Assembly: GCA_964545125.1 (NCBI GenBank)
Contig: CAZJEP010000005.1
Coordinates: forward strand, 1,447 to 65,446
DNA length: 64,000 nt
Direction: 5' to 3'
Source of the DNA: an uncultured Gammaproteobacteria bacterium
GTDB taxonomy: Bacteria; Patescibacteriota; Patescibacteriia; Patescibacteriales; Patescibacteriaceae
Shown piece after piece: positions 3,331 through 44,758 of this stretch (within the stretch, counting starts at the first letter, position 1; every line of letters starts with the position of its first letter). The notes under the pieces are model-generated. The model saw only the letters and a program-made list of their open reading frames with translations. It was not told where the DNA came from and made no database searches. A program made the translations under genes and the position numbers.

Positions 3331-3336
3331 GTCGAT

Positions 3337-3363: not shown

Positions 3364-3376
3364 AATTTTTAAATCA

Positions 3377-5268: not shown

Positions 5269-6204
5269 CTAAATTGCTAAGGCTTCAAAGATAACTTCCA
5301 CCAACATCCAGGCCAAGAAAATAATAATAATACCAATAATCGCCCACACCAAAATATTTCTTCCCTTTTTAACCTTGGCATCATTGCCGGCCGCTGTCAT
5401 CCAAGTAAAACCTCCAAAAATAATCATAATCAAGAAGATGGAACCAATAATAGCTAAAATAGCTTTGATCACCCGGCCAATCACCTCAGATACATTAACT
5501 GTCTGCAAAGGATTGGTCATGTTGCCATAATCAAAAACTACTTGAGTGGAAACTATGGGCGGTTGATTGCCCCCGCCTGTGCTCCCTGGTTGCTGGGGTT
5601 GTTGTTGAACAACATTTTTGCCGCAACAACATTTGGCGGTGCTAGCATTGGGTTTCTCGCTGTCACGACACCACGTAGGGTCAACGGCCACCACTAAGCC
5701 AACATCAGAACAATTGGCCGCAGTCTGCCAGACACAATGATTTTGGTCGGCGGCGCAAATTTTGGCTTTAACTTTATCATCATTGGTGGTAGCAAAAGCT
5801 GTAGTGGCCGGCAAGAGCCCTTGTCTAAATTCGCATTTGATGGTTCCAGAAAGATTAGAACCTTGTTTGGCGGCACACCGACTGCTTGTAGTGAAGGTTC
5901 CAAAATATTTAGTAGTCCCTGTATTAAAACTAAACAAACCTTTATCAAACTCGCCACAAATACAACAACCAGTAGCCTCGCCTATTTGGCCACAACAACA
6001 ATCCGTATCACCCGTCTTTTTTAGTTGTGGCAAACAAAAACTTTCATCGCTTTTTTTCCAATTAACATCACCGCCACAAGCAGACTGTTCGCCATATTTA
6101 TCAGTGGTGGGCGCCGGAAACCATTGGCAATTTGCCAAAACTACAGCTGGCAGAACCAAAGTAAAAAACGACAACCAAAAAATTTTTGAAAATTTATTAA
6201 GCAT
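5269..6204 (-). CDS. secreted Cys-rich ectodomain fused to a C-terminal VirB2/TrbC-like T4SS pilin two-TM hairpin
   Basis: Signal peptide MLNKFSKIFWLSFFTLVLPAVVLA, about 200 aa with many Cys, then a Q/P/G linker. The C-terminus VIGRVIKAILAIIGSIFLIMIIFGGFTWMTAAGNDAKVKKGRNILVWAIIGIIIIFLAWMLV parallels the neighbouring short pilin. Start trimmed from the track's GTG at 6225 to the ATG at 6204. Confidence 0.6.
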   Translation of the reverse strand: MLNKFSKIFWLSFFTLVLPAVVLANCQWFPAPTTDKYGEQSACGGDVNWKKSDESFCLPQLKKTGDTDCCCGQIGEATGCCICGEFDKGLFSFNTGTTKYFGTFTTSSRCAAKQGSNLSGTIKCEFRQGLLPATTAFATTNDDKVKAKICAADQNHCVWQTAANCSDVGLVVAVDPTWCRDSEKPNASTAKCCCGKNVVQQQPQQPGSTGGGNQPPIVSTQVVFDYGNMTNPLQTVNVSEVIGRVIKAILAIIGSIFLIMIIFGGFTWMTAAGNDAKVKKGRNILVWAIIGIIIIFLAWMLVEVIFEALAI

Positions 6205-6217
6205 ATTTTTATGGGGT

Positions 6218-6613
6218 TTATACACCCAAAGCTTGGAACATAAAAGCTACCAGCATCCAAGATAAGAAAATAATAATCAAAGCAACCGTGGCCCACAGCA
6301 AAACGTTTTTGCCCTGCGCCACTCTACTTTCGTTGCCGGCGGCCGTCATCCAGACAAAGCCACCATAGACAAAAATTAACAGCGCGATGGCTCCGATGAT
6401 AACCAACAAAGCATTAATAACCTTGCCGATAACTTTTGGCAAATCGATAATCGTCCAGCCTTGCGGACCAAGAGGATTGGGCAGGGTCTGGGGGCCAGAC
6501 GCAACCACCGTAGAAACTTGAGGCGGACTATTGGTCGCGCTAACAGTTTTAACTAAAAAAATAGCGCCAAAAAATAAGGCTAAAACAACAAAAATCAACC
6601 ATGATTTTTTCAT
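6218..6613 (-). CDS. VirB2/TrbC-like type IV secretion pilin (short canonical form)
   Basis: 131 aa with a signal peptide, a short mature N-terminus, then VIGKVINALLVIIGAIALLIFVYGGFVWMTAAGNESRVAQGKNVLLWATVALIIIFLSWMLV. This is two TM helices around a short charged loop, the pilin architecture annotated in CPR genomes (from memory). Confidence 0.65.
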   Translation of the reverse strand: MKKSWLIFVVLALFFGAIFLVKTVSATNSPPQVSTVVASGPQTLPNPLGPQGWTIIDLPKVIGKVINALLVIIGAIALLIFVYGGFVWMTAAGNESRVAQGKNVLLWATVALIIIFLSWMLVAFMFQALGV

Positions 6614-6687
6614 AAAATTGCTTTTCTTTTATTGTATCAAAAAAGGGATATTCAATCAATTGATTAAATATCCCCATAAGTTTAGTC

Positions 6688-7437
6688 TTAGCTTTTTGTT
6701 GCTACTTTGTCGATTTTCTTCGGACCAAGCAACTTATCTAAGAATTTGTTCCACTTGTCTAAAAATTTGTCCCAAGCGCTGATGTCGTTCGGCTGGTTTT
6801 TATTGTTGGTTTTTGCAGGATCCTTTTTAGTGAAAAAAATTTCAACTATTCCCCAAAGAACAAGAACAAAACCTAGCAACCCCAAAATCATCAAGATAAC
6901 GCGGAAAACTATCAGAAAAAAATTGCCAATAATTTGACCGAAGCCAGCGATTGGTTTGACCAAGGCTTTAATCGGGTCTATGCCGTTACTGGTTTTCTGC
7001 AAAAGAAAAATTTTGGTTTTTCCGGAAAGCCCTCTGGTAGTAAAAGTAAAAGGTGCTTTCACTTCTCCGACATCGACTATTTCGTTGTTCTCGACAATGA
7101 TTTCCTGTGGCACTGAAAAATTATTCATATACCCAAAACTGTTGGAACCGACGATTTTAATTTTGGCGTCGCTAGGAATAGTTTGGGTGTAGGTTTGGTT
7201 GGGATCAAGAAGGGCGGCTTCCATTATGGTGTAACCTTCTGTTTTCAAATTGCTGATGACATCTTCAACGGTCAAACTTTTCCGAATAGGTTTGGTGTTT
7301 GCTTGATTTTTTTGGGGCATCAACGCCAAAGCCATAATAATAAGTCCGGCGCCAATAATGATTAAAGTTAAAGAATGGGCATCAACCTTAAAATCAAATT
7401 TGGCTAATCTTGTTCTAATAGCTGTGATTATTTTCAC
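6688..7437 (-). CDS. hypothetical bitopic or double-anchored membrane protein
   Basis: N-terminal and C-terminal hydrophobic segments. No family motif recognised. Confidence 0.5.
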   Translation of the reverse strand: MKIITAIRTRLAKFDFKVDAHSLTLIIIGAGLIIMALALMPQKNQANTKPIRKSLTVEDVISNLKTEGYTIMEAALLDPNQTYTQTIPSDAKIKIVGSNSFGYMNNFSVPQEIIVENNEIVDVGEVKAPFTFTTRGLSGKTKIFLLQKTSNGIDPIKALVKPIAGFGQIIGNFFLIVFRVILMILGLLGFVLVLWGIVEIFFTKKDPAKTNNKNQPNDISAWDKFLDKWNKFLDKLLGPKKIDKVATKS

Positions 7438-15421: not shown

Positions 15422-16030
15422 CTACTGCCAAACGATACTATCAACTTGCCAACGTTTACCGGCTTTTACCATCTCCACCTTAATTTCCGGATTGCTAATT
15501 TTAGGCGCCGCATCCCCCGTTTGATCAGTGCGTCTAGCGCCAACCATAACTGTAGCCGTGCCGGATGCCTTATCTAAAGATAAAATTTTAACCGAAACTA
15601 CTTGGGTGCGAACACTGTGAGGAATTTTATAATCAGTTTGACTGCCAAGAATCTTGTCAATTTGGTTGTCAACCCAAGTCTGCATTTTGGCGGTAATAAA
15701 TAATTTCAAATCAGAAAATTGCTCCGCGCCTTCCTGGTTGGAATAAGTGCCGAAGCGTTGTACAAAAATTTTAGCCACTTGGCCGGCGTCTTGTTGAACT
15801 ATTTCGTCGGTAGTAGAGGGTTGAATCTGGTTAGGCGTGTTGGTAGAGGTTTCTTTTGTCTGGGGAGTGTTGGTAATTAAGGTCGCTGTCGGAATTTTAA
15901 CCACCGGCTCTACATTTTGGGAATCATTACTTTTATTAAAATTATAAAATATTAAATAATAAACCAATAAACCAACGGCTAAAGCGCAAACAACGATCAA
16001 AGATAATAAGGCTAAGTTTCTTTTATTCAT
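15422..16030 (-). CDS. bitopic membrane protein, possibly a VirB8/PrgL-like T4SS component
   Basis: One N-terminal TM helix, a Thr/Gln-rich linker, then an alpha+beta-looking domain of about 130 aa. It lies immediately downstream of the VirB4 gene. The function is inferred from topology and context only. Confidence 0.35.
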   Translation of the reverse strand: MNKRNLALLSLIVVCALAVGLLVYYLIFYNFNKSNDSQNVEPVVKIPTATLITNTPQTKETSTNTPNQIQPSTTDEIVQQDAGQVAKIFVQRFGTYSNQEGAEQFSDLKLFITAKMQTWVDNQIDKILGSQTDYKIPHSVRTQVVSVKILSLDKASGTATVMVGARRTDQTGDAAPKISNPEIKVEMVKAGKRWQVDSIVWQ

Positions 16031-16229
16031 ATGTTTAATATAAATGCGAATCCACGAATTAAATCGCGAATACCTCGAAATAAATTTACTTTGTTAAACA
16101 TCATTCCCGTCTTTTGATGGAAAATTTAACGTGGTGAATACGCCCCTGACCCATCTCTTGAGGGGAATTTGCATATTCGTAACCTTTTGTAGTATTCGAA
16201 TGCTCTTTCATAGTTTCGGATTAAGGCTA

Positions 16230-18161
16230 TTATGCAAAGTTTAGTTGTTTTTTATCTTGACGTTCATTGATGGTGGCCATTTCGGCGGCAAATTCTTTTT
16301 TGGCTTCTTCAATTTCCAAAAGTTGGCGCGGATCGGAAGTGATTAGTTGGTCTTCGGTATAAGAAGCCACTACTTTAATAGCGGCATGTTTATTGCCGGC
16401 AAAAAAGATACCTTCACCCAAGCCACACTCCAACAATAAATATTTTTCTCCTTCGGTCAGCAAAAAAGTTTTTTCCACCAAATCAATAGCGGCCTTAGAT
16501 TGTTTTAAAAGCATTTGCAAGGCAGAGTTATTAACAATGGCTTGACCATAAGGGGAACGCAAAAAGTCGTTGACGTCTTGAGTAATATTAGTTACCCCCA
16601 AATAATATTTACGGCAACGCTTAACCAAAGCAAAAATAAATTTAGCGCTGTCTTCGTGTTGCATCAACCACCAAGCTTCGTCAATCACCAAAATTCTCTT
16701 TTTAATCTTACTACGAACCACGTTCCAAATATAATTAACTACCATATAGATGGCCATCGGTCGTAACTCGTCCTCTAAATCGCGTACCGAGAAAGCCACT
16801 AACTGATTATCCATCTCTACGTTGGTCGGACTGTTAAACAAACCAGCAAAAGTTCCCTGCGTATATTTTCTTAAACGCATAGACAAACTAGCTCCGCCCT
16901 CCATACCTTCTAAAATTTCTTGCAAATCACTCATAATCGGCGGTTCCACTTTGCTTAAATCGCAGTCCGGTGTAATGTCTTTTTTGGCGTAAGTTTCTAG
17001 TAGCGCCCTGTCCATAACCGAATCTTCGTCATAAGTCATGGCACCAATCATAATTTTAATCAAACCCTTAACTGTAATAACGGCGCTGCGAATAATATCT
17101 TCAGTCTTGGTTTGCTCACCTACGGCCCGCGGTAAATCAAAGGGGTTGATTTTGCTTTTAGAGGCTAAAGAAATGTTGATGTAGGTGCCACCGACCGCTT
17201 CAGATAAATGCTTATATTCGTATTCGGGATCGATAATAATTACCTCACAACCAATCATCAAACTACGCAACACTTCTAATTTGACGGCATAACTTTTGCC
17301 GGCGCCGGAGGTGGCAAAAACCACCGAATTAGCATTTTGCAAACTAAACCGATCAAACAAAATCAAACTGTTGTTGTGACGATTAATACCATACAAGATG
17401 CCCTCATCAGAAGTCAGCTCACTAGACACAAAAGGGAAAGACGAAGCTATCGGTGAAGAATTCATATTAAAGGCTACAACCAATTCATCGCGATTTAAGG
17501 GTAAGGTAGAATTAAAACCTTGTTCGGCCTGATAATAAACCCGCTTGGAATAAATCAAACGAGAACCAAAAATATCTTCTACGGTATCAGTTAATTTATC
17601 TAACTCCTCCAAGGCGTCGGCATACAAAGTAACATACAAACAAAATTGAAAAAACTTTTCCGTGCCCTGAGTCAAAGCATCGCGCAAATATTCAATGTCG
17701 CGCAGGGCAGTTTCTCTGATGGGGTCGCGCGCCGCTCCTTTTTCGGCGTCCGAGGCGATTTGCGCCTCAAGATTTCCTGCTTTATTTTTCAATTGCTTTA
17801 AGACTAAAGAAGTTTTAACCGGATAAAAATACATGGCAATATCAAAAGTGGAGTTAAGGTTGATAATCGGAGAAAACCACCCTACGCTGATATAACGAGG
17901 ATAAGTTATAACAAAAACTGTGCGCAAAAACTTTGGCCCAAGTTTAATATGATTAGGAGTAACTTCAAAACTGCTAGGCGCAATTAAATCTTTAATAGAA
18001 ATAATGCCCCGTCGATAAGTCTTTTCTTCCAAAACCAATCGTTCGGTGAGCTGCGCCTCTTTTTCCAATTTTTCCAGGTCGGGTTTTTCTAAAACAAAAC
18101 TCGGCCGTTTAACTTCCGGCTGGTCGGATAATTTTTGATTTTCTTTGTTCAAATCAACCAT
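16230..18161 (-). CDS. virB4: VirB4/TrbE-family type IV secretion ATPase
   Basis: Walker A FATSGAGKSY, Walker B RILVIDEAWWLM, and an N-terminal domain with the ..YPRYISVGWF.. pattern typical of VirB4/TraE proteins. Confidence 0.85.
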   Translation of the reverse strand: MVDLNKENQKLSDQPEVKRPSFVLEKPDLEKLEKEAQLTERLVLEEKTYRRGIISIKDLIAPSSFEVTPNHIKLGPKFLRTVFVITYPRYISVGWFSPIINLNSTFDIAMYFYPVKTSLVLKQLKNKAGNLEAQIASDAEKGAARDPIRETALRDIEYLRDALTQGTEKFFQFCLYVTLYADALEELDKLTDTVEDIFGSRLIYSKRVYYQAEQGFNSTLPLNRDELVVAFNMNSSPIASSFPFVSSELTSDEGILYGINRHNNSLILFDRFSLQNANSVVFATSGAGKSYAVKLEVLRSLMIGCEVIIIDPEYEYKHLSEAVGGTYINISLASKSKINPFDLPRAVGEQTKTEDIIRSAVITVKGLIKIMIGAMTYDEDSVMDRALLETYAKKDITPDCDLSKVEPPIMSDLQEILEGMEGGASLSMRLRKYTQGTFAGLFNSPTNVEMDNQLVAFSVRDLEDELRPMAIYMVVNYIWNVVRSKIKKRILVIDEAWWLMQHEDSAKFIFALVKRCRKYYLGVTNITQDVNDFLRSPYGQAIVNNSALQMLLKQSKAAIDLVEKTFLLTEGEKYLLLECGLGEGIFFAGNKHAAIKVVASYTEDQLITSDPRQLLEIEEAKKEFAAEMATINERQDKKQLNFA

Positions 18162-18200
18162 AATAAAATTAATAATGTAATAACGAAAATTAGCTTTTAC

Positions 18201-18872
18201 TTATTGAGAAACCCGCATGGTATTAACATCTTTTAGGGGTTGGTTGGGAGAAGCTTCAGGGTTATAGATGTTATATAACATTTCTATCAAGGCCTGGGTG
18301 TCCAGCTCCACGACATTTAAACCAATAGAAGCTAAACCGCCCACCACGCTATCTACCCGACGATCCAATTCTTTTTTTAAACGATCAAATTTATCTTGTT
18401 TCATTTTAAGAATTGAAGAGGGACTAAAAATCTCCCCCACCCTAGCTATGAAACTTTTTTTGTCATCAGACATCGGGTTATAAGAAATGATTACATAAAA
18501 CCTTTTATTCATAATCTTGCCCAAGGACACCAATTCGGCCACATAGTCGATATATTCGGCGGTTTGCGCTTTGAGTAATTCGTTAGTCTGAGCTTTCTCT
18601 TTGTCTCGCAGATCATTAAGATAATTTTCAATATTTAATTCTCGAGAATGAATGACCAATTGTAAAGGAAAGCTCAAATTATTCAAAAAACTAACATAAG
18701 CAGCAATAATAGCGTTTTGTTCGTCTTCGTTTTTTAGGGCAAAGTTAATACTAGAAACCATCACAATGGAACGCAAAGTTCCATCATCCATAATAATAGT
18801 ATTATCTCTGATCTCGCTTAAGTTGAGATATTTTTGCGTAGAAGGGATAGAGCTTCTTTTTGAAGGGATCAT
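18201..18872 (-). CDS. T4SS-associated orphan protein without ATPase motifs
   Basis: 223 aa, upstream of virB4. The segment LNLSEIRDNTIIMDDGTLRSIVMVSSINFALKNEDEQNAIIAAYVSFLNNLSFPLQLVI resembles, from memory, the extreme N-terminus of Gram-positive VirB4-like proteins. Confidence 0.35.
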   Translation of the reverse strand: MIPSKRSSIPSTQKYLNLSEIRDNTIIMDDGTLRSIVMVSSINFALKNEDEQNAIIAAYVSFLNNLSFPLQLVIHSRELNIENYLNDLRDKEKAQTNELLKAQTAEYIDYVAELVSLGKIMNKRFYVIISYNPMSDDKKSFIARVGEIFSPSSILKMKQDKFDRLKKELDRRVDSVVGGLASIGLNVVELDTQALIEMLYNIYNPEASPNQPLKDVNTMRVSQ

Positions 18873-18935
18873 AAATAATAAAATAAAATCAAAAGTTAAA
18901 AGTCAAACGGCAAAATTTCAAGTTAAAAATAAAAA

Positions 18936-19326
18936 TTATTTCAATTTATTTTTGAGTTTTATAACTCCAGCTCCTATCATTTTTGCTAATTCTTCCGCTT
19001 CTGTTAATAACTCATTTGTTTTGCGCTCATTCGTTAGCTTAGCATCTCTCAACAAACCCAACCAGTATTTTGTTTCGTTAGCGCTTTTTAATGATATTTC
19101 AAAAAATTTTTTATACTCCAAGCGACTACTGGAAGCTCTTGCTTCAACTATATTAGCGCCAATAGAAGTCGCTGATCTTATTAGAAATCGCTGATCTTAT
19201 TAATTGATCAGAAATAACTTTGGCGCTATTTTTCTTTGGCAAATCATCGAGCAAAGAAATAATTTTTAAACTAAAATAATAGCACCTATACTTAAGTTCA
19301 TTTTTGTCTCTTTTCTCTTCTGGCAC
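18936..19326 (-). pseudogene. four-helix-bundle protein (23S rRNA intervening-sequence protein family) disrupted by a frameshift
   Basis: The downstream part (track ORF 18936-19121) reads EYKKFFEISLKSANETKYWLGLLRD. Removing one 19-bp repeat unit restores ...ISDQLIRSATSIGANIVEARASSSRLEYKKFF..., an ORF of about 111 aa from the GTG at 19326. Confidence 0.75.
19163..19200. repeat. 19-bp tandem duplication (2 units, 1 mismatch) causing the frameshift
   Basis: tagaagtcgctgatcttat (19163-19181) and tagaaatcgctgatcttat (19182-19200). Confidence 0.9.
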
Positions 19327-19383
19327 ACTTTTAATCTTTTATTTTAATTTTTGCCCCTTGAACTTTGAATTTTGATTTAATTG

Positions 19384-19854
19384 TTAGCCCAGCAAATCAT
19401 TAATATTTTTTTCTCGGGTAATACTAATATTGGCGTTTGAATCATCTTCTCCAGAATAATAACCCTTGGTGTCGGCCACTAAGGCTAAGCGGCTTAAGCG
19501 CGAAGAAGAAACTTCTGGTCGAACTAATTCATCCTCCTTGTAGACCGGAACCAAATCCGTAATTTCCGCATCATCAAGCTTGTTCCAAACCCGTAAATTT
19601 TTTCGTTTGAAAGTCTGCAATAGGTTTAATAAAAAATAATGAAAAGGTGCGCCGTTAATTTTAATAAAAGCAAAAGTAAAACCAACCATTACGATAATTA
19701 TAGAAGAAAATAGAAACAAAGAAAAGTCAAAAATTCTATAAGCCAAGAAAACCAAACCAAAATCAACCAGCATGATAATAAATTGGCGCACCGACAAGGG
19801 GCCAATTATTTTGTCTTCCACATCAATAAATTGCGGGACGGTGAATTGCTGCAC
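19384..19854 (-). CDS. PrgI/VirB3-like small two-TM T4SS protein
   Basis: The N-terminus VPQFIDVEDKIIGPLSVRQFIIMLV followed by two TM helices is the PrgI-family pattern. GTG start. Confidence 0.55.
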   Translation of the reverse strand: MQQFTVPQFIDVEDKIIGPLSVRQFIIMLVDFGLVFLAYRIFDFSLFLFSSIIIVMVGFTFAFIKINGAPFHYFLLNLLQTFKRKNLRVWNKLDDAEITDLVPVYKEDELVRPEVSSSRLSRLALVADTKGYYSGEDDSNANISITREKNINDLLG

Positions 19855-19860
19855 AAAATT

Positions 19861-19895
19861 AGGTCTTAGGTCTTAGGTATTAGGTATTAGGGTTT
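19861..19895. repeat. 7-bp tandem repeat (AGGTCTT x2, AGGTATT x2, AGGGTTT)
   Basis: aggtcttaggtcttaggtattaggtattagggttt begins 7 nt upstream of the PrgI-like start codon. Confidence 0.85.
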
Positions 19896-19934
19896 AAAAT
19901 TATTATCTATTCCCCACAACCTTTAACCGACAAC

Positions 19935-21227
19935 CTAATGTATTAATTTATTTATCTCCCGATTAAAGCCCAAAATAGCTTCAAATTCTTCTTTAGTTAA
20001 ATAATCCGGGTTGTCTTTTAGTTTTTTGGCCAAAATATTATCCACACTCTTGCCGGCGTTAATCGCCTCTTGGTAAGCTTCAATATACATACGATTAGTC
20101 GGACTAGCTTTCCAACCTTGGACACCGGCAAATTTTTTGCCATAGTCTTCCTGACCCAGAACTTCTATCTTTTTTTTGATAACTTCCGTGGCTCTGACCG
20201 GATCACTGCTTAAATTACGAAAATTCCTAATGGTCATATACTTTAACTCGTCTACCGGAGTGTAAATCTTGGGATTGGTTTTTATGTCCTCCATTTTTAT
20301 TTTACCGTTTTCGGTGCGCGGTCGATTATCTTTAATAATTTCTCCCTCGACTACGCTCGGGACAGGGCCCTCGATAACTGCTGGTTCAGACTCTTTTTTT
20401 AAATATTCCTCTGTCTCGTTTTTCTGGTTTCCCTTGCCCTGAGCCTGCCGAACGGGTTCGACTGCGTTTCCCTCGACTTCGCTCTGGACAGGCAGGGTAA
20501 GCGGGACAGGCCCCTCGACTACGCTCGGGACAGGCGGTTCTAGGGAGACTGGCGCTGGTTTTTCTTGGTTCTGCCTGGCTTTAATGGCGGCGACCAAATC
20601 ATATTCTACATCGCGAGCAATAGGTGTTTTAACAGCTTCGCCAGACATCCAAGAATTGGGTTGTTTGACGGGCGAAACAATAGGTTCATCTTTGGCTAAA
20701 TTTAAAATGCTTTGCGCCGAATTGATATCAAAACCCAGTCCGCCTAACCCCACTTCTTTTATTAACGATTCTTTGGTGTTGATTTTGTCCCTAATACCCC
20801 GCAAATAGGTGTTCAAAATTTTTCTAAACCTTTCTTCCAGTTCTCGCGAGGCAAAATTAATATTGGCTTTAGCAATAACTTCGGAAATTTTTTTGTCTAG
20901 ATCGGTTAAATGTTTGGCTGACTCATCCAAAACGGTTTGCGACAAATAATCGGTGACAATTTCATTAGCTTGGATGGAAAAAACGCGAAAATTGAGCTCA
21001 TTAGCCAAACTTTGAGCCTGATTAATCGACAAAGAAAATTCTTGACTAATCGTAGTCGCCAAATTATGGCTGGAAATTTCCCCCACCAAAACCCTAATAA
21101 CCAAAGCGCCCAAAACAACCTGATATTTTTTTTCCAACTCCTTAATAGACGCTAACAGTAACGGAGAAGAAAATCTCTGCTTGGTGGCTAGTGGTAATTG
21201 ATTGTATTTTTCTAAATAGCTAAGCAT
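19935..21227 (-). CDS. hypothetical protein with an internal PVPSVVEG repeat region
   Basis: 430-aa ORF. No family recognised. Confidence 0.55.
   Translation of the reverse strand: MLSYLEKYNQLPLATKQRFSSPLLLASIKELEKKYQVVLGALVIRVLVGEISSHNLATTISQEFSLSINQAQSLANELNFRVFSIQANEIVTDYLSQTVLDESAKHLTDLDKKISEVIAKANINFASRELEERFRKILNTYLRGIRDKINTKESLIKEVGLGGLGFDINSAQSILNLAKDEPIVSPVKQPNSWMSGEAVKTPIARDVEYDLVAAIKARQNQEKPAPVSLEPPVPSVVEGPVPLTLPVQSEVEGNAVEPVRQAQGKGNQKNETEEYLKKESEPAVIEGPVPSVVEGEIIKDNRPRTENGKIKMEDIKTNPKIYTPVDELKYMTIRNFRNLSSDPVRATEVIKKKIEVLGQEDYGKKFAGVQGWKASPTNRMYIEAYQEAINAGKSVDNILAKKLKDNPDYLTKEEFEAILGFNREINKLIH
20344..20534. repeat. three copies of a GC-rich 23-mer inside the CDS
   Basis: ccctcgactacgctcgggacagg at 20344-20366 and 20512-20534, and the variant ccctcgacttcgctctggacagg at 20470-20492. 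Confidence 0.85.
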
Positions 21228-21263
21228 AAATTTAAATTACCATTGTGCTTTGGGTCTTATAAT

Positions 21264-22424
21264 TTATCTTTTCAGTTTATCCAGCTCTTCCTCTAGCGCC
21301 AATCTTTCCAAACTGCCCTCGGGATAGCGAGCCAACAGAGTCTGGGTTTCGGTAATCTGTTGCGCTTTCAGCTTGGCTTGCGCTTCTTCCTGATGATTAA
21401 CAGCGGTCGTTTTGGGAAAAATCTTCGGCTTAGTGACTGGAATAACCGGAGCGAATCTGGTTGAATTAGTTTCCTGAGCGCCAACATTTCGACCAAGCGG
21501 TTCTTCAGGAATAGCCACCGGAAAAATCATCCAATGCCTGGGATCGGAACTGGGCAAATTTTCCGGAAAAAATTTCAAGTTGCAATAAACCTGCAAAAGA
21601 TTGCTGAGCAGTTTCTTCTCGTCAAAATCCAAAAATTTGGCGTTGGGAGAATTGGTAACAAAATCAGACAAAGCCACCGCGTCAAACATACCACTACCCT
21701 TTTGCGTTATAAAATAAGACAACCAATTAGCCACCGTGGGGTCGACTTGTCGGCCATCCAAAACCAGGCGCTGACTGGTCAAAGTTTCCTGATTGTTAAG
21801 CAACAAATTAGCTAACTCACCCTGAATCTCCTCGCGAACGTTAAAAATTAAATGAAAAATAAAATCATTGATTTCCGACAAAACTTCGTTATCATTTGAG
21901 CTCAACATTTCCACCAAATTGTTAGCAAAAAATTCTTTAATTTTTTTCTCTCGCTCTTCCCAGTCAACATCTTCATCGTCTTCCGGTTCATCGACAAACT
22001 CCGGCGGTTCAGCCAACTGCTGGGCTACCCATTCGGCTTCCAGAGGAATGGCTCGCTGTTGGATTTCAGCATAACTTTGATATTTAGCCGAATCCCCTCC
22101 CCAAGAACTGATCAGACCGGAAATATCAACGCCCAACCAATCCGCCACCACCAACAAACGGGTGCCGGCAATATCGCAAGCCAGTTGGCGGGCCACCAAA
22201 TCGCTAAAACCAAAAAAGTTTTTGATGGTTTCCACCAAATTAGTCGCCGGAATTTCCTTTAAAAACAGCTGGGCGATTAAATCATAATAAATTCGCAACT
22301 GAGGCAGATTAAACTTATATTTATTGGCAATCAAAACATTGAGCTCGTCAGCTTTAAAAGAATCCAAATAGGCGTAAACTTCCGGGGGCAAATTTTTAGC
22401 CTTGGCTTTAAGGTTATCGTTCAT
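21264..22424 (-). CDS. hypothetical acidic protein
   Basis: 386-aa ORF whose start lies 3 nt from the stop of the upstream gene. Confidence 0.55.
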   Translation of the reverse strand: MNDNLKAKAKNLPPEVYAYLDSFKADELNVLIANKYKFNLPQLRIYYDLIAQLFLKEIPATNLVETIKNFFGFSDLVARQLACDIAGTRLLVVADWLGVDISGLISSWGGDSAKYQSYAEIQQRAIPLEAEWVAQQLAEPPEFVDEPEDDEDVDWEEREKKIKEFFANNLVEMLSSNDNEVLSEINDFIFHLIFNVREEIQGELANLLLNNQETLTSQRLVLDGRQVDPTVANWLSYFITQKGSGMFDAVALSDFVTNSPNAKFLDFDEKKLLSNLLQVYCNLKFFPENLPSSDPRHWMIFPVAIPEEPLGRNVGAQETNSTRFAPVIPVTKPKIFPKTTAVNHQEEAQAKLKAQQITETQTLLARYPEGSLERLALEEELDKLKR

Positions 22425-22427
22425 ATT

Positions 22428-25226
22428 TTAAATTATCTTTTCCAATTTAAGATAGGTTTCTATGGCGTCTTTATTAAGCGGTCCGGCGCCCTGCTCTTTT
22501 TGCGCCAAATTTCTCAAACCATTTAAAGTTTCTTTGCTTAAATCATTGGCTTGACCAAGTTTGCCAGAACCGGAAACTCCGGCCTCCCTCAAAACGTTTT
22601 TGATCATTTCGTTGTCTCTAGCTTTTGACAAATCGGCATCAAGGTCATTGTAAATATTTATTATTTTGGGTGATTCCGGATCAAAATTTTTGGTCTTTTC
22701 TACGGCAATCATTCTGGCTAAGTCAGGATTATTGCCACTTCTTTCCAGAGTTTTCAACCGGTCGGCGCTGGTGCTCTCAGCGATAACTTTAAGAGCTTCC
22801 GGACTAAGCTTATCGGAATTGATATTTCCTAGTTGCTTGGCCGAGGCCTTGGTGGCGTATTTCTCCAGATCGGCCACGTCAAGTTTTCCGTCAAGACCAG
22901 TAAAAGCTTTGGTGGCATCACCATTTAAATCCAAATTCAGACTGTCGGCCCGCAAATAAGTTAAATTTCCTTGGGCCTTCTTAATTTCGTCGGTATAATG
23001 ATCAATAACCTGCTGATTAGCCTCATCAGGATGATCTTGTTGAGCAACTTTAGCCAAATCAAGCTGATTTTTGGCATTAAGTAATTTTTCTTCTTCTCGA
23101 TGTGCCAACTCTCCCAAAGCCTCTGATAACTGTCCAGCTTGTTTAGGGTCACCATCTTTGTCTTTTTTGCTAAGAGCACTACTCCAACGTTCTTTTTTCA
23201 AAGCCTCTCTAAAGGCTTCGGTAAAATTAGCCAAATTCCTTCTATCCGCCTCAACCCCGACCTGCCCTCGAAGATTAGTTTGGGAATTAAGGTCAAAAGT
23301 GGAAAGATTTTGCTTGTCAAAATCTATCTTGTTTTTTTCAATCAGCTTCTTGAGGGCGGCTTTTTGATCAGCATTGGTCAAGTCAAACAGCAGTTCGGCT
23401 TGTTTTTCTTGGGTGGCACTTCGTAAGGCTTTGAGTTGGGCAGGGTTATTGGCAAAAAGTTCTTGCGCCTTATTAAAGGATTCTTTAGCGGTGGTTGACT
23501 CTAAATTTTTAAATTCACCTTTAGCGGCCAAAGCGGCATAGATACCTTTTAATTTACTTTTATCAGTGGTGCCACCAAGCAAGGAATGAAGCTCTTCGCT
23601 GCTCATATTCTTGTAAGGCGACATTAATTCTTCATATTCCTTGTTGGCCCGTTCTGTTTGAGCCACATCCTTGGCTGTGCCGAATTTACTGGCGTGCATA
23701 GCTTGGGCAAATTTATAACCAAAGCTACCAGGTACATAAGCTTTCAATTTAGACACAGCGCCAGTGTCACTAACCATGGTTCCGTCGTTCCTATTTTTAT
23801 CATATTTATACATAACATCGCCTTCTTTGTGGGCTCCGGTAACGGTCGCGGCCAAGCGTTGTTGAGTGACTGCTCGATTAAATTTGTTTTTGGTTAGTTT
23901 ATTAAAATTATCTTTCAAACCCTGTTTGGTCATTAAATTATTATACACAGCGCCGGCGCCCCTAGTGACAAACCCGGGTCTATCTCCGTATTCTCTGCCA
24001 AAAGCTTTAACTAAATTTCGCGAAGCTCTGTAGTCAACGGCCTTAGCCAAACCCAAACCGCCTCGTCCAACAGCTTTGGTGCCTTTCCAAGCGGCTCGAC
24101 CCGTGGCTTTGGTGGCTCCGACGGCCCCCCGCTTGGCTAAACCAAGACTCTTTCTCTTGGCCCAACCTGCTCCGCTTTGTAAGCGAGCCATGGCCGTGCC
24201 AGCCGTAGCGCCAGCCACCCCGCCAAAAGACTTGGCCACTATCAAACCGCCAAGCAACAAACCAATAGAAACAGCGAAACGCATTAAATGTTCGGTGGTG
24301 CCGACATCAGTGAGACCGACACGTGGACCGCCACTGGGAGTATTAAAACCGACGCCGTTAAGCAAACTGGAAGCGCTATTAAATTGACCCAAAGTAGCCA
24401 AAGACAACCAGATAAAAAAAGCTAAAATCGGACCGACAATTAAATTATTGGAAAACTGTTTCCACCAATTAGTGGTAACACCTCTAGTTAGGGGCGCCAC
24501 CGACCCCAAATAAGACAAGGGCGAAAGAATGATAAGAATCCACAGCATAACAACCCGATAAACCAAGGTTATCAACAAGGCAAACATCACCACCAGCATC
24601 ACAATAACATAAAGAAGGGCCACAATATAAGAAGCTACAACCCCCCAAAAATCATAACTACCCTGTTGCTGTCGGAGATTTTCCCAATCGGTGGCACTCA
24701 TAGAAAACAATTTATCCATACCCAGCAAAAAAACGAAATTATTGCCACCAACACCCTTAAAACCATTAACAAAAGTCAACATAATCACCTGAACAAAATC
24801 AATCAACACCCCGCAAATCATTTTGGAAAAATTAATAAGAATAGCAAAAATAATCACCCGCTTCAAAAGCTGTTTAATGCTATAATCTCGAATATGAAGA
24901 ATGGTGGCAAAAGCGATAATCAGCAAAATCAAAATAAAAAACATGTTGGACAAATCTCTGACAATTCCCCAACCCAAGACCACCGCCGGCATAGTAATAA
25001 AGCCGTTGTATTGAGCTACTTCGACCAAAACATTGATAACAATCAAAATTAATTGCCCAAGAGCCAAAATCAAAGCTACAATAATACTACCGATAACACT
25101 CAAAACGGCGTCAGTTATGTCGGAGGCTAGCGCAAAATGAGCCGGCACAACAAAAATTACCAACAGCATCAAAGCTAGGGCCAGGAATTTTTTGGGTTTA
25201 AAAAATTTAGCTACGCGTCTTAACAT
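22428..25226 (-). CDS. polytopic VirB6/TrbL-like membrane protein with a long Gly/Ala/Lys-rich and helical C-terminal extension
   Basis: At least 8 hydrophobic helices in the first 380 aa or so. These are followed by GGVAGATAGTAMARLQSGAGWAKRKSLGLAKRGAVGATKATGRAAWKGTKAVGRGG and then about 520 aa of K/E/A/L-rich sequence. Start trimmed to the ATG at 25226 (MLRRVAKFF). Confidence 0.5.
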   Translation of the reverse strand: MLRRVAKFFKPKKFLALALMLLVIFVVPAHFALASDITDAVLSVIGSIIVALILALGQLILIVINVLVEVAQYNGFITMPAVVLGWGIVRDLSNMFFILILLIIAFATILHIRDYSIKQLLKRVIIFAILINFSKMICGVLIDFVQVIMLTFVNGFKGVGGNNFVFLLGMDKLFSMSATDWENLRQQQGSYDFWGVVASYIVALLYVIVMLVVMFALLITLVYRVVMLWILIILSPLSYLGSVAPLTRGVTTNWWKQFSNNLIVGPILAFFIWLSLATLGQFNSASSLLNGVGFNTPSGGPRVGLTDVGTTEHLMRFAVSIGLLLGGLIVAKSFGGVAGATAGTAMARLQSGAGWAKRKSLGLAKRGAVGATKATGRAAWKGTKAVGRGGLGLAKAVDYRASRNLVKAFGREYGDRPGFVTRGAGAVYNNLMTKQGLKDNFNKLTKNKFNRAVTQQRLAATVTGAHKEGDVMYKYDKNRNDGTMVSDTGAVSKLKAYVPGSFGYKFAQAMHASKFGTAKDVAQTERANKEYEELMSPYKNMSSEELHSLLGGTTDKSKLKGIYAALAAKGEFKNLESTTAKESFNKAQELFANNPAQLKALRSATQEKQAELLFDLTNADQKAALKKLIEKNKIDFDKQNLSTFDLNSQTNLRGQVGVEADRRNLANFTEAFREALKKERWSSALSKKDKDGDPKQAGQLSEALGELAHREEEKLLNAKNQLDLAKVAQQDHPDEANQQVIDHYTDEIKKAQGNLTYLRADSLNLDLNGDATKAFTGLDGKLDVADLEKYATKASAKQLGNINSDKLSPEALKVIAESTSADRLKTLERSGNNPDLARMIAVEKTKNFDPESPKIINIYNDLDADLSKARDNEMIKNVLREAGVSGSGKLGQANDLSKETLNGLRNLAQKEQGAGPLNKDAIETYLKLEKII

Positions 25227-25228
25227 AT

Positions 25229-25876
25229 TTAAGGAAACAAAAGGGCCAAGATGTAACCAAGAAAACTTAGGGGGTCGACAATGGCCCAAACCAGCAAAAC
25301 AACCAAAACAGCAACCGCCAAGATAATAAACAGGGCCAGCAAATCCAATAAAATTAGTAACATAGCCTCAAAAATACCAATATTATCACCAAAAGTTTTT
25401 AGAGTTTTCTTGGCTTCTTTGTTGCCGGAAATAGCCACATTCAAACCGGGAAGATTTCTGGACCACTCATGACCCAACTTAGAAAAAAATTCACTGCCAG
25501 CCACCAAACGCATAAAAACATGAAGGTTGATATAAAGCAAAGTTAAACCCCAACTAGGAATTAAGTTCAACCAAGACTGTGCTAACAAACGGTCGGTGCC
25601 AAACCTAACAGGGGTTCCCAGAGCATTAACAGCGACCATCTCAGTTGTAGCCAGACTAACAGACATATTTTGTCGGGCCTGATGTCTAAGCGAACCCATG
25701 GCAGACTGTTTATCGTTACCTCGGTCTTTGGTAATGATTTTGTTTGTTTGTGCAGGCCTCTTGTTGCCAACAATCTTAATATTATTTTCAGATACATTTA
25801 AACTACGGCTAGCTCGCGCTTCCTGTCGTTGTCTCCTTAAATCATTGGCCAATTCCTGATCTGAATTTCCGACCAT
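25229..25876 (-). CDS. hypothetical membrane protein, first gene after the terminator
   Basis: Basic N-terminus and C-terminal TM helices. The track's start at 25978 lies inside the terminator hairpin, so I trimmed it to the ATG at 25876. Confidence 0.5.
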   Translation of the reverse strand: MVGNSDQELANDLRRQRQEARASRSLNVSENNIKIVGNKRPAQTNKIITKDRGNDKQSAMGSLRHQARQNMSVSLATTEMVAVNALGTPVRFGTDRLLAQSWLNLIPSWGLTLLYINLHVFMRLVAGSEFFSKLGHEWSRNLPGLNVAISGNKEAKKTLKTFGDNIGIFEAMLLILLDLLALFIILAVAVLVVLLVWAIVDPLSFLGYILALLFP

Positions 25877-25964
25877 AAAAAACTCTTTCTTTAATTTAAT
25901 TATATCACTATTTACCGGACCAAGCAAAGAGGAGAAAACGCGCAACGGCCAATATATAACCCGC

Positions 25965-26007
25965 AATAAAAAGGTCAAGCCCCGGCAATTAAGCTTGCCG
26001 GGGCTTG
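25965..26007 (-). terminator. strong intrinsic terminator downstream of the giant gene
   Basis: 13-bp stem caagccccggcaa / ttgccggggcttg with a 6-nt loop, followed on the minus strand by TTTTTATT. Confidence 0.75.
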
Positions 26008-39876: not shown

Positions 39877-40602
39877 ATGAATAATTATAACCAACCGACC
39901 CCTACTCTTAACCCCGCACAAAAGAAAAAAACCTGGATATTGATTGCGGTTATTTTGGGTCTCTTTGTTGTTCTGTCTTTATCTATGACCAAATTTGTCG
40001 GCAACAAAGTTGGTCAATTTTACAATTCGGAACAAGCCCGCACCTCCGCCGAAGCCACCGACAATCTGTATAACTCCGAGAAGCAACTTCGTTATGAGGG
40101 CTTGGATAATGTTTGGAATGTTTTTGGTAGCGCTAAACCAAAAATAACTATTGTCGAATTTGGAGATTTTACTTGTCATTACTGCAAAAACAATTATCCC
40201 GTCATCAGGGCCGTGACTATGCGCCACCAAGATACGGTGCAGTTAATTTTTCGCGATCGCACGCCCGACCAGCGCTCTCTCGGTTTGTCGCTAGTAGCGC
40301 AATGCGCCGGTGAACAAGGAAAATTTTGGGTCATGCACGATAAACTGTATCAAAACCAAAGCGATACTTTGGGCAACGACTTTGCGCAACTGCTGACTTT
40401 AGGGCAAAGCATTAATTTGGACGAAACCACTTTTCGTGATTGTTTAATCAAACAAAAATATTTAAGCAAAATCAAAAAAAACATGCAAAGCAGTTTGGAT
40501 TTGGGCATCAAGGGCACCCCGACTTTTTTCATTAACGGCAAAGAATACGTGGGAGAATTATCCGAAAGTCAACTAGAAGAAATAATTAAAGAATTAGAAT
40601 AA
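39877..40602 (+). CDS. membrane-anchored DsbA-family thiol:disulfide oxidoreductase
   Basis: N-terminal TM helix and a thioredoxin fold with FGDFTCHYCK (CxxC). Confidence 0.75.
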   Translation: MNNYNQPTPTLNPAQKKKTWILIAVILGLFVVLSLSMTKFVGNKVGQFYNSEQARTSAEATDNLYNSEKQLRYEGLDNVWNVFGSAKPKITIVEFGDFTCHYCKNNYPVIRAVTMRHQDTVQLIFRDRTPDQRSLGLSLVAQCAGEQGKFWVMHDKLYQNQSDTLGNDFAQLLTLGQSINLDETTFRDCLIKQKYLSKIKKNMQSSLDLGIKGTPTFFINGKEYVGELSESQLEEIIKELE

Positions 40603-43262: not shown

Positions 43263-43284
43263 CCTTAAAAACTGTTATTGACCC

Positions 43285-44028: not shown

Positions 44029-44138
44029 AAAAGTTCTAAATTTTAAGTTTAAAATTTCAAGTGAAACAACTTTACCCAAAAAACTTAAAACTTAAGCCTT
44101 GAAACTTGAAACTTAAGACACACCTTATCCATAACTAA

Positions 44139-44747: not shown

Positions 44748-44758
44748 ATTAAAATACC

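What the first reader, a model, noticed from the sequence alone, without database searches (positions are those of the whole stretch)
5269..6613. Tandem pilin paralogues, one short and canonical and one carrying a 200-aa Cys-rich N-terminal ectodomain
The 131-aa product (6218-6613) is a minimal signal peptide plus two-TM pilin. The next gene (5269-6204) ends in a clearly paralogous hairpin (GGFTWMTAAGNDAKVKKGRNILVWA against GGFVWMTAAGNESRVAQGKNVLLWA). It is preceded by about 200 aa with more than 25 Cys and a QQQPQQPGSTGGGNQPP linker. This looks like a major pilin plus a minor or tip pilin carrying a binding domain. The pair lies about 10 kb from the ATPase cluster and 36 kb from the second pilin pair. 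That second pair uses a distinct hairpin subtype (GGT.WIL..G...AK.WI).
Basis: partly seen in the sequence, partly recalled or inferred. Interest (0 to 1): 0.6.

Follow-up and report, generated by a model that had tools for sequence, protein, structure and literature searches.

The report
Paired Patescibacteria T4SS pilins, one Cys-rich
Two adjacent genes in an ultrasmall (Patescibacteria/CPR) bacterium encode VirB2-like secretion-system pilins, and one carries a fast-evolving, disulfide-rich outer domain of about 190 residues that may be a built-in host-binding module; tandem pilins are already known in this group, but this fused architecture does not seem to have been described.

Summary
Gene A (6218-6613, minus strand, 131 aa) and gene B (5269-6204, minus strand, 311 aa) both score above the Pfam cut-off for PF18895 T4SS_pilin. 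Their C-terminal two-helix hairpins are 54% identical without gaps (shuffle z = 31). B has 18 Cys, not more than 25. The window is a Patescibacteria-type chromosome with a monoderm-type T4SS 10 kb away (TrsD-like, VirB4, PrgI and a VirB6-like protein).

Tandem VirB2-like pilin arrays are already documented in Patescibacteria (PMC12102498), so the pair itself is ordinary.

The less ordinary part is B's ectodomain. Only about 7 sequence clusters share it among billions of proteins. It keeps 15 invariant Cys (CCC, CC, CCC) across five aligned members. Its Cys count is always even. It follows a cleavable signal peptide and evolves much faster (about 30% identity) than the hairpin (61-68%). The recG / membrane protein / A / B / cysS arrangement is conserved in relatives.

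In 80 related loci, 19 carry at least one N-terminally extended Cys-rich pilin from many unrelated ectodomain families, nearly always inside an array. The major/minor or tip-pilin reading is plausible but unproven. I found no homology to the giant protein or to any solved structure.

The parts
6218..6613 (-). Gene A: 131-aa short VirB2-like pilin. Signal peptide is about residues 1-26 (VSA|T), followed by a Pro-rich ~30-aa N-terminus with the NPL motif and a C-terminal two-helix hairpin (residues ~58-131). It has no Cys.
   Evidence: PF18895 at 44.2 bits against a cut-off of 26.6. Hydropathy analysis. Orthologues in L003, L004, L005, L007 and L008. The top 120 hairpin relatives are all 101-151 aa, and the few that carry a source name are called 'pilin' by NCBI.
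5269..6204 (-). Gene B: 311-aa extended VirB2-like pilin, made of signal peptide, Cys-rich ectodomain, Q/P/G linker and C-terminal hairpin.
   Evidence: PF18895 at 44.7 bits over residues 245-312 of the 318-aa GTG-start ORF 5269-6225, which is residues 238-305 of the 311-aa protein. 18 Cys. Family alignments A1, A3 and A4.
6133..6204 (-). B signal peptide (residues 1-24, MLNKFSKIFWLSFFTLVLPAVVLA). The predicted cleavage is before the conserved mature N-terminus N-C-Q-W.
   Evidence: Hydropathy analysis. In the first four members (A1) the string A-N-C-Q-W is invariant. The subfamily of P0005-P0007 has A-D-C-G-W instead.
5623..6132 (-). B ectodomain (residues 25-194), beta-rich with 18 Cys including CCC (69-71), CC.C (80-83) and CCC (192-194).
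   Evidence: 15 Cys are invariant in the 5-member alignment A3. Only 3 relatives were found among 1.84 billion representative proteins, and 3 more by profile search. The AF2 model has only pLDDT ~55-65 here, and Foldseek found no PDB match.
5497..5622 (-). Low-complexity linker (QQQPQQPGSTGGGNQPP...) followed by the conserved Y-x-x-x-T-N-P-L-x-T motif that precedes the hairpin.
   Evidence: Sequence read. pLDDT is below 50 for residues 199-236. Y226, T230, N231, P232, L233 and T235 are invariant in all 7 members.
5272..5496 (-). B hairpin: two transmembrane helices joined by the basic loop AAGNDAKVKKGRN (net +3).
   Evidence: AF2 predicts helices at 238-270 and 275-308.
6688..7437 (-). Conserved upstream 249-aa membrane protein with an N-terminal TM segment, an extracytoplasmic domain and a C-terminal hydrophobic segment. 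It forms part of the syntenic module recG / this gene / A / B.
   Evidence: Orthologous to the L008 gene at 2645-3526 (E = 3e-12). Genes in the equivalent position occur in L004, L005 and L007. No Pfam family above cut-off.
6631..6675 (-). Terminator-like hairpin (6675-6644) overlapping a promoter-like site (6659-6631, TTGATT-17-TACAAT with TG) just upstream of gene A. This would make A-B a bicistronic unit.
   Evidence: Consensus scan only, so this is weak evidence.
15422..25978 (-). Context: a monoderm-type T4SS cluster. It holds a VirB4 P-loop ATPase (16230-18161), a TraC-N/TrsD-like protein (18201-18872), PrgI/VirB3 (19384-19854) and a 953-aa membrane protein resembling the Mycoplasma ICE protein Mbov_0396 (22428-25289), plus several unassigned proteins. 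No relaxase or coupling protein was found in the window.
42429..46414 (+). Context: second pair of hairpin proteins (277 aa at 42429-43262 and 551 aa at 44759-46414). Their hairpins are internal and followed by C-terminal extensions. They flank an SLT lytic transglycosylase and a protein with a near-threshold 3D-domain match (22.8 bits against a cut-off of 23.8).
39877..40602 (+). Context: membrane-anchored DsbA/MdbA-like thiol-disulfide oxidoreductase with a C-H-Y-C active-site motif. It is a candidate catalyst for the disulfides of B.
   Evidence: Thioredoxin_4 at 82.7 bits and DSBA at 50.9 bits. Sequence read. This family is enriched in CPR according to PMC6744442.

Best explanation
A and B are paralogous members of the Patescibacteria VirB2-like pilin family (Pfam PF18895). 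They form a minimal, probably bicistronic, two-gene pilin array at a conserved chromosomal site between recG and cysS.

Shown or directly supported: both are exported through a Sec signal peptide and inserted in the membrane as an N-out/C-out helical hairpin with a basic cytoplasmic loop.

Inferred: the chromosomal monoderm-type T4SS (VirB4, TrsD-like, PrgI, VirB6-like) 10 kb away draws such hairpin subunits from the membrane pool into a surface structure, either a pilus or a short stalk. A contributes a nearly bare subunit. B contributes a subunit whose N-terminus displays a ~170-aa domain on a ~40-aa flexible linker. That domain is beta-rich, cross-linked by 8-9 disulfides, and probably oxidised by the DsbA/MdbA-like enzyme encoded in the window.

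The ectodomain evolves about twice as fast as the hairpin but keeps its Cys scaffold, so it is most likely the part that contacts the environment or host cell. It could stand in for the PrgB- or VirB5-type adhesins that a published survey reports as undetected in Patescibacteria T4SS loci.
For: Family membership:
- PF18895 above cut-off for both proteins.
- Close hairpin relatives are 101-151 aa. About a third are also annotated PF04956 TrbC/VirB2, and the few with an NCBI name are called 'pilin'.

Paralogy:
- 54% identity over the hairpin, z = 31.
- A and B orthologues are each closer across genomes (61-69%) than A is to B (53-58%), so the duplication is old.

Conservation and synteny:
- The recG / TM protein / A / B order is seen in L004, L007 and L008; cysS follows B in L003, L004 and L008, and dus follows in L003.

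Export and disulfides:
- Signal peptide, loop charge +3 and acidic C-tail.
- The mature Cys count is even in 7 of 7 family members and in 41 of 44 Cys-rich pilin N-terminal regions.
- A DsbA-like protein with a CHYC motif is encoded in the window.

Rates (window against L008 and L004):
- B ectodomain 30-31% identical, B hairpin 61-68%, RecG 64-68%.

Machinery:
- T4SS core genes are in the same window.

Literature:
- 441 VirB2-like arrays were found in 383 Patescibacteria assemblies, and no PrgB-type adhesins were detected (PMC12102498).
- The pilin array is essential in Southlakia epibionticum (PMC10633639 and PMC12857230).

Generality:
- 19 of 80 related loci carry at least one extended Cys-rich pilin, 18 of them inside arrays.
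Against: - No PF18895 filament has been observed in any organism.
- A and B do not reach PF04956 (TrbC/VirB2) directly.
- They match no solved pilin by sequence or by fold.
- The pair is not inside the T4SS cluster; housekeeping genes lie between them.
- The ectodomain has no detectable relative with a known function, and its AF2 model is of low confidence. Binding is therefore pure inference.
- A orthologues in L002 and L008 also carry a Cys-containing N-terminal domain, which weakens a fixed major/minor division.
- No expression data exist; only DNA runs hold the locus.
Confidence: 0.55

Rival explanations
1. Membrane-anchor reading. The PF18895 hairpin of B serves only as a C-terminal two-helix membrane anchor, perhaps with lateral oligomerisation. 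B would then be a cell-surface, disulfide-rich envelope protein that is never extracted into a filament. The adjacency to A reflects duplication history rather than co-assembly.
For: - Very diverse, mutually unrelated N-terminal (and sometimes C-terminal) domains are attached to the same hairpin, as expected of a generic anchor module.
- The pair lies outside the T4SS cluster.
- No pilus of this family has been seen; reviews only speculate about one (PMC12857230).
Against: - The hairpin is conserved at a housekeeping-like rate with specific motifs (NPL, GGF.WM, the basic loop), which is more than a plain anchor needs.
- The extended forms sit almost always in arrays with short canonical pilins (18 of 19 loci).
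- Array pilins are essential together with the T4SS in S. epibionticum.
Confidence: 0.25
2. Channel or stalk component. A and B are VirB2-like subunits of a short trans-envelope conduit of the monoderm T4SS rather than a long pilus. B's ectodomain caps or gates the distal end at the host interface.
For: - Sub-threshold similarity of A and B to the Mycoplasma ICE 'pilin-like conjugal transfer protein' NF045849 (E about 1e-7).
- Similarity of the 953-aa cluster protein to the protein named after the next locus tag, Mbov_0396 (E = 5.6e-10). Wall-less Mollicutes are not known to make long conjugative pili; that last point is my own knowledge.
- No relaxase or coupling protein was found in the window.
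Against: - The NCBIfam scores are below the curated cut-offs (29.6 and 31.4 against 40; 39.2 against 70).
- There is no structural evidence either way.
- This reading overlaps heavily with the best explanation and differs mainly in filament length.
Confidence: 0.15
3. Artefact or chance. The long ORF is a spurious or decayed reading frame, and the hairpin similarity is only compositional, as expected between hydrophobic helices.
For: None beyond the general hydrophobic bias of TM segments.
Against: - Shuffle z = 31.
- Pfam scores are above the gathering cut-off.
- Intact orthologues with 15 invariant Cys occur in at least 6 other metagenomic or MAG sources, in conserved synteny.
Confidence: 0.01

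Closest known systems
VirB2-like pilin arrays of Patescibacteria (PF18895 / PF04956; Quinonero-Coronel et al. 2025, PMC12102498; essential pilin array of Southlakia epibionticum ML1, Wang et al. 2023, PMC10633639)
   Same: - The same Pfam family.
- Tandem arrangement of divergent paralogues.
- A chromosomal monoderm-type T4SS with VirB4, TrsD and PrgI, and no relaxase or coupling protein in view.
- Array members diverge strongly. The paper reports a mean of 25% and a maximum of 54% identity; here the hairpins are 54% identical and the rest is unalignable.
   Different: - The published descriptions treat these as small pilins and do not mention N-terminal Cys-rich ectodomains.
- B is 311 aa with a 170-aa disulfide-rich domain.
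- This pair lies 10 kb from virB4, at a conserved recG-cysS site rather than inside the T4SS cluster.
TrbC/VirB2/TraA conjugative pilins of diderm T4SS (Pfam PF04956; F, T, pED208 and R388 pili)
   Same: - Signal peptide plus a two-helix hairpin with a basic inter-helix loop.
- N-out/C-out membrane topology. In the solved pili the termini face outward and the loop lines the lumen (my own knowledge of those structures).
- About a third of the closest hairpin relatives are co-annotated PF04956.
   Different: - A and B themselves do not match PF04956 at E <= 1.
- No PDB pilin is hit by sequence or fold.
- Known VirB2 pilins are about 65-75 aa when mature, with no fused globular domain.
- There is no evidence here for cyclisation or phospholipid binding.
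Mycoplasma ICE 'Mbov_0395 family pilin-like conjugal transfer protein' (NCBIfam NF045849) and the protein named after the next locus tag, Mbov_0396 (NF045889)
   Same: - The hairpins of A and B align end to end with the 80-residue model (E = 4e-7 and 1e-7).
- The window's 953-aa T4SS protein aligns with Mbov_0396 (E = 5.6e-10).
- Both are monoderm-type T4SS.
   Different: - All scores are below NCBI's curated cut-offs, so this is not membership.
- In the window the pilin genes are not adjacent to the Mbov_0396-like gene.
VirB5-type minor pilins or tip adhesins, and multi-copy VirB2/VirB5 paralogues of Bartonella Trw and Anaplasma
   Same: The proposed role is the same: a variable, host-contacting component of a T4SS surface structure, diversified through paralogy.
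   Different: - No sequence relationship was found; no VirB5-type family appears among the Pfam hits of A or B.
- Here the putative binding module is fused to the pilin hairpin itself instead of being a separate protein.
Pam pili of CPR bacteria (bioRxiv 10.64898/2026.03.03.709456)
   Same: A CPR-specific surface filament system implicated in host contact.
   Different: Pam pilins are Ig-like and assemble by donor-strand exchange. They are unrelated to the helical-hairpin proteins here.

Membership tests
Pfam PF18895 T4SS_pilin | HMM score at or above the gathering cut-off (26.6 bits) | tested here: met
   A scores 44.2 bits and B scores 44.7 bits. The second pair scores 18.6 and 20.2 bits, which does not meet the cut-off.
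Pfam PF18895 T4SS_pilin | Architecture: N-terminal signal peptide followed by two hydrophobic helices joined by a short basic loop | tested here: met
   Hydropathy segments and loop charge (+3 in B, +1 in A). AF2 predicts helices at 238-270 and 275-308. No dedicated signal-peptide or TM predictor was available.
TrbC/VirB2 pilin (Pfam PF04956) | Direct match to the family HMM | tested here: not met
   No PF04956 hit for A or B at E <= 1. About a third of the top 120 hairpin relatives do carry a precomputed PF04956 annotation, so the link is indirect.
TrbC/VirB2 pilin (Pfam PF04956) | Small mature subunit (about 65-75 aa) with no extra globular domain | tested here: not met
   Mature A is about 105 aa. 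Mature B is about 287 aa with a 170-aa Cys-rich domain.
TrbC/VirB2 pilin (Pfam PF04956) | Polymerises into a T4SS-dependent helical pilus with bound phospholipid | not testable with these tools
   No multimer prediction or experimental data were available. Foldseek against the PDB gave only generic helical hairpins at E >= 1.9.
Patescibacteria VirB2-like pilin array (as defined in PMC12102498) | Two or more pilin genes in tandem, or separated by one non-pilin gene, in a genome that also encodes VirB4 | tested here: met
   A and B are 13 nt apart on the same strand. VirB4 lies at 16230-18161.
Patescibacteria VirB2-like pilin array (as defined in PMC12102498) | Pilin gene located near virB4 (true for 1135 of 1948 assemblies in that study) | tested here: inconclusive
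   The pair is about 10 kb (roughly 12 genes) from virB4, with housekeeping genes between. It may or may not fall inside the +/-20 CDS range used in that paper.
NCBIfam NF045849 Mbov_0395 family pilin-like conjugal transfer protein | Score at or above the curated cut-off (40 bits) | tested here: not met
   29.6 bits for A and 31.4 bits for B.
VirB5-type minor pilin / tip adhesin | Sequence or fold similarity to VirB5/TraC-type proteins | tested here: not met
   No such Pfam or NCBIfam hit for B and no Foldseek hit. The fold model is of low confidence, so fold similarity cannot be excluded.
Bacterial lipoprotein (considered because Cys is the second residue of the mature protein) | Lipobox [LVI][ASTVI][GAS]C at the signal-peptide end | tested here: not met
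   The sequence is L-A-N-C, or K-A-D-C in the sister subfamily. N or D at position -1 does not fit the lipobox; the lipobox pattern is from my own knowledge.

The most novel reading that the evidence does not exclude
Patescibacteria may use the VirB2-type hairpin as a universal assembly handle for a 'pilin display' system. Arrays of up to 12 hairpin genes would encode bare subunits alongside subunits fused to hypervariable, disulfide-locked ectodomains (N- or C-terminal) from many unrelated families. These would co-polymerise on the essential T4SS and determine which host cell the epibiont can attach to. On this reading the adhesins reported as undetected in these T4SS loci are built into the pilins themselves. 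The B family (NCQW...CCC...CC...CCC) would be one such host-specificity module.
Probability: 0.3. Interest if true: 0.7.

Novelty: new variant of a known kind. Interest (0 to 1): 0.45.

Why it matters
The T4SS and its pilin array are essential for the epibiotic life of the one genetically tractable Patescibacterium. What the pilins do, and how hosts are recognised, is unknown, and no T4SS adhesin has been detected in this group.

Fusion of fast-evolving, disulfide-rich ectodomains to the conserved pilin hairpin recurs in about a quarter of the related loci sampled here. That gives a concrete and testable candidate for the host-contact element. It would also be the first VirB2-type pilin known to carry a large globular passenger domain.

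The tandem pilin pair on its own is ordinary for this phylum.

Tried and rejected
1. Homology between B's ectodomain and the giant 2845-aa Cys-rich protein or any other window ORF. BLASTP gave E >= 0.6 and a family-profile hmmsearch gave E >= 0.2. Rejected.
2. Word-index search with the ectodomain found only the protein itself. Exhaustive HMMER was needed to find relatives.
3. Single-sequence AF2 and AF2 with a 7-sequence alignment gave ectodomain pLDDT below 50 and about 55-65. Foldseek against the PDB returned only generic helical hairpins at E >= 1.9, so there is no fold assignment.
4. PDB sequence searches. Gene A gave nothing. The hairpin profile hit only designed 'Pizza' beta-propellers through a repeated G-x-x-W-V-T-x-x-G-N string, which is spurious.
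5. tblastn of the A hairpin against 72,556 plasmids found no match.
6. Laying metagenome contigs on the locus to look for strain-level variation in the ectodomain showed only about 7x identical coverage in one wastewater run, which is uninformative. No RNA runs hold the locus.
7. The lipoprotein reading of the N-C-Q-W N-terminus was rejected because there is no lipobox.
8. The new CPR 'Pam' pilus preprint was checked and is an unrelated Ig-like system.
9. Homology between B's ectodomain and the 8-Cys N-terminal domain of the A orthologues in L002 and L008. All-against-all phmmer places them in separate clusters.
Full report
**What is there**

The minus strand between recG (7622-9778) and two tRNA genes plus cysS (3377-4780) carries three genes:
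- a 249-aa membrane protein (6688-7437);
- gene A (6218-6613, 131 aa);
- gene B, which starts 13 nt after A's stop codon (5269-6204, 311 aa; an alternative GTG start lies at 6225).

The window as a whole looks like a Patescibacteria/CPR chromosome. It has about 40% GC and dense housekeeping genes (CysRS, Dus, RecG, LeuRS, KsgA). It also carries a monoderm-type T4SS cluster: VirB4 P-loop ATPase at 16230-18161, a TraC-N/TrsD-like protein at 18201-18872, and PrgI/VirB3 at 19384-19854. The nearest hairpin relatives in GTDB genomes are Falkowbacteria, Uhrbacteria, Parcubacteria and 'Patescibacteria group' MAGs. The locus occurs in wastewater and freshwater metagenome runs.

**Checking the observation**

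Both proteins match Pfam PF18895 (T4SS_pilin) above the gathering score, at 44.2 and 44.7 bits against 26.6. Both have an N-terminal signal-like segment and two C-terminal hydrophobic helices. The two hairpins align without gaps at 54% identity over 74 residues. The alignment score lies 31 standard deviations above composition-preserving shuffles, so the paralogy is not a hydrophobicity artefact.

The quoted strings and the Q/P/G linker are present. The one error is the Cys count. B has 18 Cys, not more than 25, and all lie in residues 26-194. It is still the most Cys-rich ORF in the window, at 5.8% against a mean of 1.5%.

A motif scan and a custom hairpin HMM find exactly four hairpin proteins in the window: A, B, and the pair at 42429-43262 and 44759-46414. 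That second pair is 22-26% identical to A and falls below the PF18895 cut-off.

**Is the Cys-rich domain a real, conserved thing?**

A word-index search with the ectodomain found only the protein itself. An exhaustive HMMER scan of 1.84 billion representative proteins found just three relatives, P0002 to P0004. A profile search then added P0005 to P0007.

All seven share the same architecture: signal peptide, then a mature N-terminus N-C-Q-W (or D-C-G-W), then the Cys-rich domain, a low-complexity linker, a Y-x-x-x-T-N-P-L-x-T motif, and the PF18895 hairpin. Fifteen Cys are invariant across five members, including CCC, CC and CCC clusters.

The mature Cys count is even in all seven members (16, 18 or 22). 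Among 44 distinct Cys-rich pilin N-terminal regions collected from related loci, 41 have an even count. That is what fully disulfide-bonded extracytoplasmic domains would show.

The window also encodes a membrane-anchored DsbA/MdbA-like oxidoreductase with a CHYC motif. This enzyme family has been reported as CPR-enriched (PMC6744442).

Other topology indicators agree. V-L-A sits at positions -3 to -1 of the signal peptide, the inter-helix loop has a net charge of +3, and the C-tail is acidic. Together these give an N-out/C-out topology with the ectodomain outside.

**Conservation of the locus**

The neighbours of the relatives show the same gene order. L004, L007 and L008 have recG, one or two membrane proteins, an A orthologue and a B orthologue. 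cysS follows B in L003, L004 and L008, and dus follows it in L003. The upstream 249-aa protein is orthologous to its L008 counterpart (E = 3e-12).

Identity of window proteins to their L008 and L004 orthologues:

| Protein or region | Identity |
|---|---|
| RecG | 64-68% |
| CysRS | 76-83% |
| A hairpin | 65-69% |
| B hairpin | 61-68% |
| B ectodomain | 30-31% |
| A against B hairpin, same genome | 53-58% |

The N-terminus of A is essentially unalignable between genomes. It is Pro-rich here, consists of Gly-rich repeats in L004, L005 and L007, and is a ~130-aa domain with 8 Cys in L002 and L008.

Two conclusions follow. The A/B duplication predates these lineages. The hairpins evolve like core genes, while the exposed N-terminal parts evolve fast.

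**How general is it?**

In the 80 species-representative loci fetched through the hairpin, my HMM found 297 hairpin domains. Their median N-terminal length is 58 aa. 47 loci have two or more hairpin genes, and some have up to 12. 19 loci contain at least one member with 100 or more N-terminal residues and six or more Cys, and in 18 of those the extended member sits in an array with other hairpin genes.

These ectodomains fall into many families with no detectable similarity to each other. B's family forms one discrete cluster. The sample is biased towards relatives of B's hairpin.

The top 120 hits of a hairpin profile in the 5.8-billion-protein collection are all 101-151 aa. About a third are co-annotated PF04956 (TrbC/VirB2), and the few that carry an NCBI name are called 'pilin'. 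Gene A is therefore the canonical form and B is a derived form.

**Comparison with the literature**

Quinonero-Coronel et al. 2025 (PMC12102498) found VirB2-like pilins (PF18895/PF04956) in 1,948 Patescibacteria assemblies. They reported 441 arrays of 2-11 pilin genes, with a mean identity of 25% and a maximum of 54%. They also noted that no PrgB-type adhesins were detected.

Wang et al. 2023 (PMC10633639) and a 2025 review (PMC12857230) report that the pilin array is essential in Southlakia epibionticum. They only speculate that a pilus is built.

None of the texts I could search mentions extended or Cys-rich pilin forms. The recently described CPR Pam pilus is an unrelated Ig-like donor-strand-exchange system. 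So the tandem pair is a known kind of feature, and the fused disulfide-rich ectodomain appears to be an undescribed variant.

**Mechanism**

Shown or directly supported:
- family membership;
- paralogy;
- probable co-transcription (13-nt gap; a terminator-like and a promoter-like site lie upstream of A only, which is weak evidence);
- export, with an extracytoplasmic and disulfide-bonded ectodomain;
- presence of a T4SS in the same genome region.

Inferred:
- The T4SS extracts the hairpin subunits from the membrane into a pilus or stalk.
- By analogy with solved VirB2/TraA pili, whose termini face outward (my own knowledge), B's N-terminal domain would decorate the outside on its ~40-aa linker and contact the host.

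Whether B is a minor, tip or stoichiometric subunit cannot be decided from these data. The fact that A orthologues can also be extended argues against a rigid major/minor split. The main rivals are that the hairpin is merely a membrane anchor, or that the proteins form a short channel rather than a pilus.

An interesting side lead comes from NCBIfam. A and B align end to end, below the curated cut-off, with the Mycoplasma ICE 'Mbov_0395 pilin-like conjugal transfer protein'. The 953-aa T4SS protein aligns with the protein named after the next locus tag, Mbov_0396. This hints that VirB2-like hairpins may not be foreign to monoderm MPF-FATA systems.

**Dead ends**

- No similarity between B's ectodomain and the giant 2845-aa protein or any other window ORF.
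- AF2 models of the ectodomain are of low confidence, and Foldseek found nothing.
- PDB sequence searches were empty or spurious.
- No plasmid hits.
- The metagenome contigs showed no informative variation, and there are no RNA data.

**Verdict**

The pilin-family interpretation is supported, while the functional split into major and minor or tip pilin is plausible but unproven.

The pair is a new member of a documented class. The Cys-rich passenger domain makes it a new variant worth a systematic survey and a structural or biochemical test. Interest is moderate (0.45).

Noticed in passing
window 40605-47294 (+): A four-gene cassette sits between the pyruvate:ferredoxin oxidoreductase subunit genes. 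The cassette is a 277-aa hairpin protein, an SLT lytic transglycosylase (43285-44028), a protein with a near-threshold 3D-domain match (44139-44747) and a 551-aa hairpin protein. The flanking POR genes are gamma (40605-41144) and alpha (41113-42300) upstream, and the TPP-binding beta subunit (46269-47294) downstream. In these two hairpin proteins the hairpin is internal and followed by 160-200 aa, so they would also display ectodomains, on the C-terminal side.
   Followed up: partly
window 22428-25289 (-), 6218-6613 (-), 5269-6204 (-): The 953-aa T4SS-cluster protein resembles the Mycoplasma ICE proteins Mbov_0396 and MMCAP2_0566 (E = 5.6e-10 and 1e-6). The A and B hairpins resemble the proteins named after the preceding locus tags, Mbov_0395/MMCAP2_0565 'pilin-like conjugal transfer protein' (E about 1e-7). 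All scores are below the curated cut-offs. This suggests that VirB2-like hairpins may exist in monoderm MPF-FATA systems, contrary to the usual statement that they lack them.
   Followed up: partly
window 16230-18872 (-): VirB4 appears as two ORFs: an N-terminal TraC_F_IV-like protein of 223 aa (18201-18872) and the P-loop ATPase of 643 aa (16230-18161). This matches the TrsD plus VirB4 arrangement reported as typical for Patescibacteria. No relaxase or VirD4-type coupling protein was found in the ORFs that were scanned.
   Followed up: partly
window 26036-35312 (-): A giant 2845-aa secreted protein has 108 Cys and one CBM_4_9 domain. It is followed by a 245-aa protein with bacterial TSP3 repeats, right next to the T4SS cluster. 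It shows no similarity to B's ectodomain.
   Followed up: partly
window 47405-48907 (-): A 500-aa protein with an N-terminal signal-like segment, 21 Cys and no Pfam family. It is another orphan Cys-rich exported protein.
   Followed up: no
window 7495-7523 (-): A perfect sigma-70 consensus (TTGACA, 17 nt, TG-TATAAT) lies 58 nt upstream of the 249-aa membrane-protein gene that precedes the pilin pair.
   Followed up: no
L004:4440-4928, L005:1975-2508, L007:3668-4156, L002:1-765, L008:3610-4371: Orthologues of the short pilin A have quite different N-termini. They carry tandem Gly-rich repeats (GAGQVDTG five times, or GGGNAPGVT three times) in L004, L005 and L007, and a ~130-aa domain with 8 Cys that starts A-[GA]-C-C-R-I in L002 and L008. 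The hairpin stays 65-69% identical throughout.
   Followed up: partly
P0006 (369 aa) and P0007 (298 aa): Two members of B's family carry an extra internal Cys-containing module that begins G-C-C-[EK]-I. P0006 also has SVTDSG tandem repeats in the linker. This suggests that the ectodomain is built from small CC-initiated modules that can be duplicated or inserted.
   Followed up: no
window 14656-15444 (-): A ComFC-like protein (double zinc ribbon plus phosphoribosyltransferase domain) lies directly beside the T4SS cluster.
   Followed up: no
Genome contigs record titles for L010-L083: Many MAGs that carry typical Patescibacteria pilin arrays are titled 'uncultured Gammaproteobacteria bacterium' (binchicken/SRP co-assemblies). 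This looks like a placeholder or a mislabelled taxonomy.
   Followed up: no
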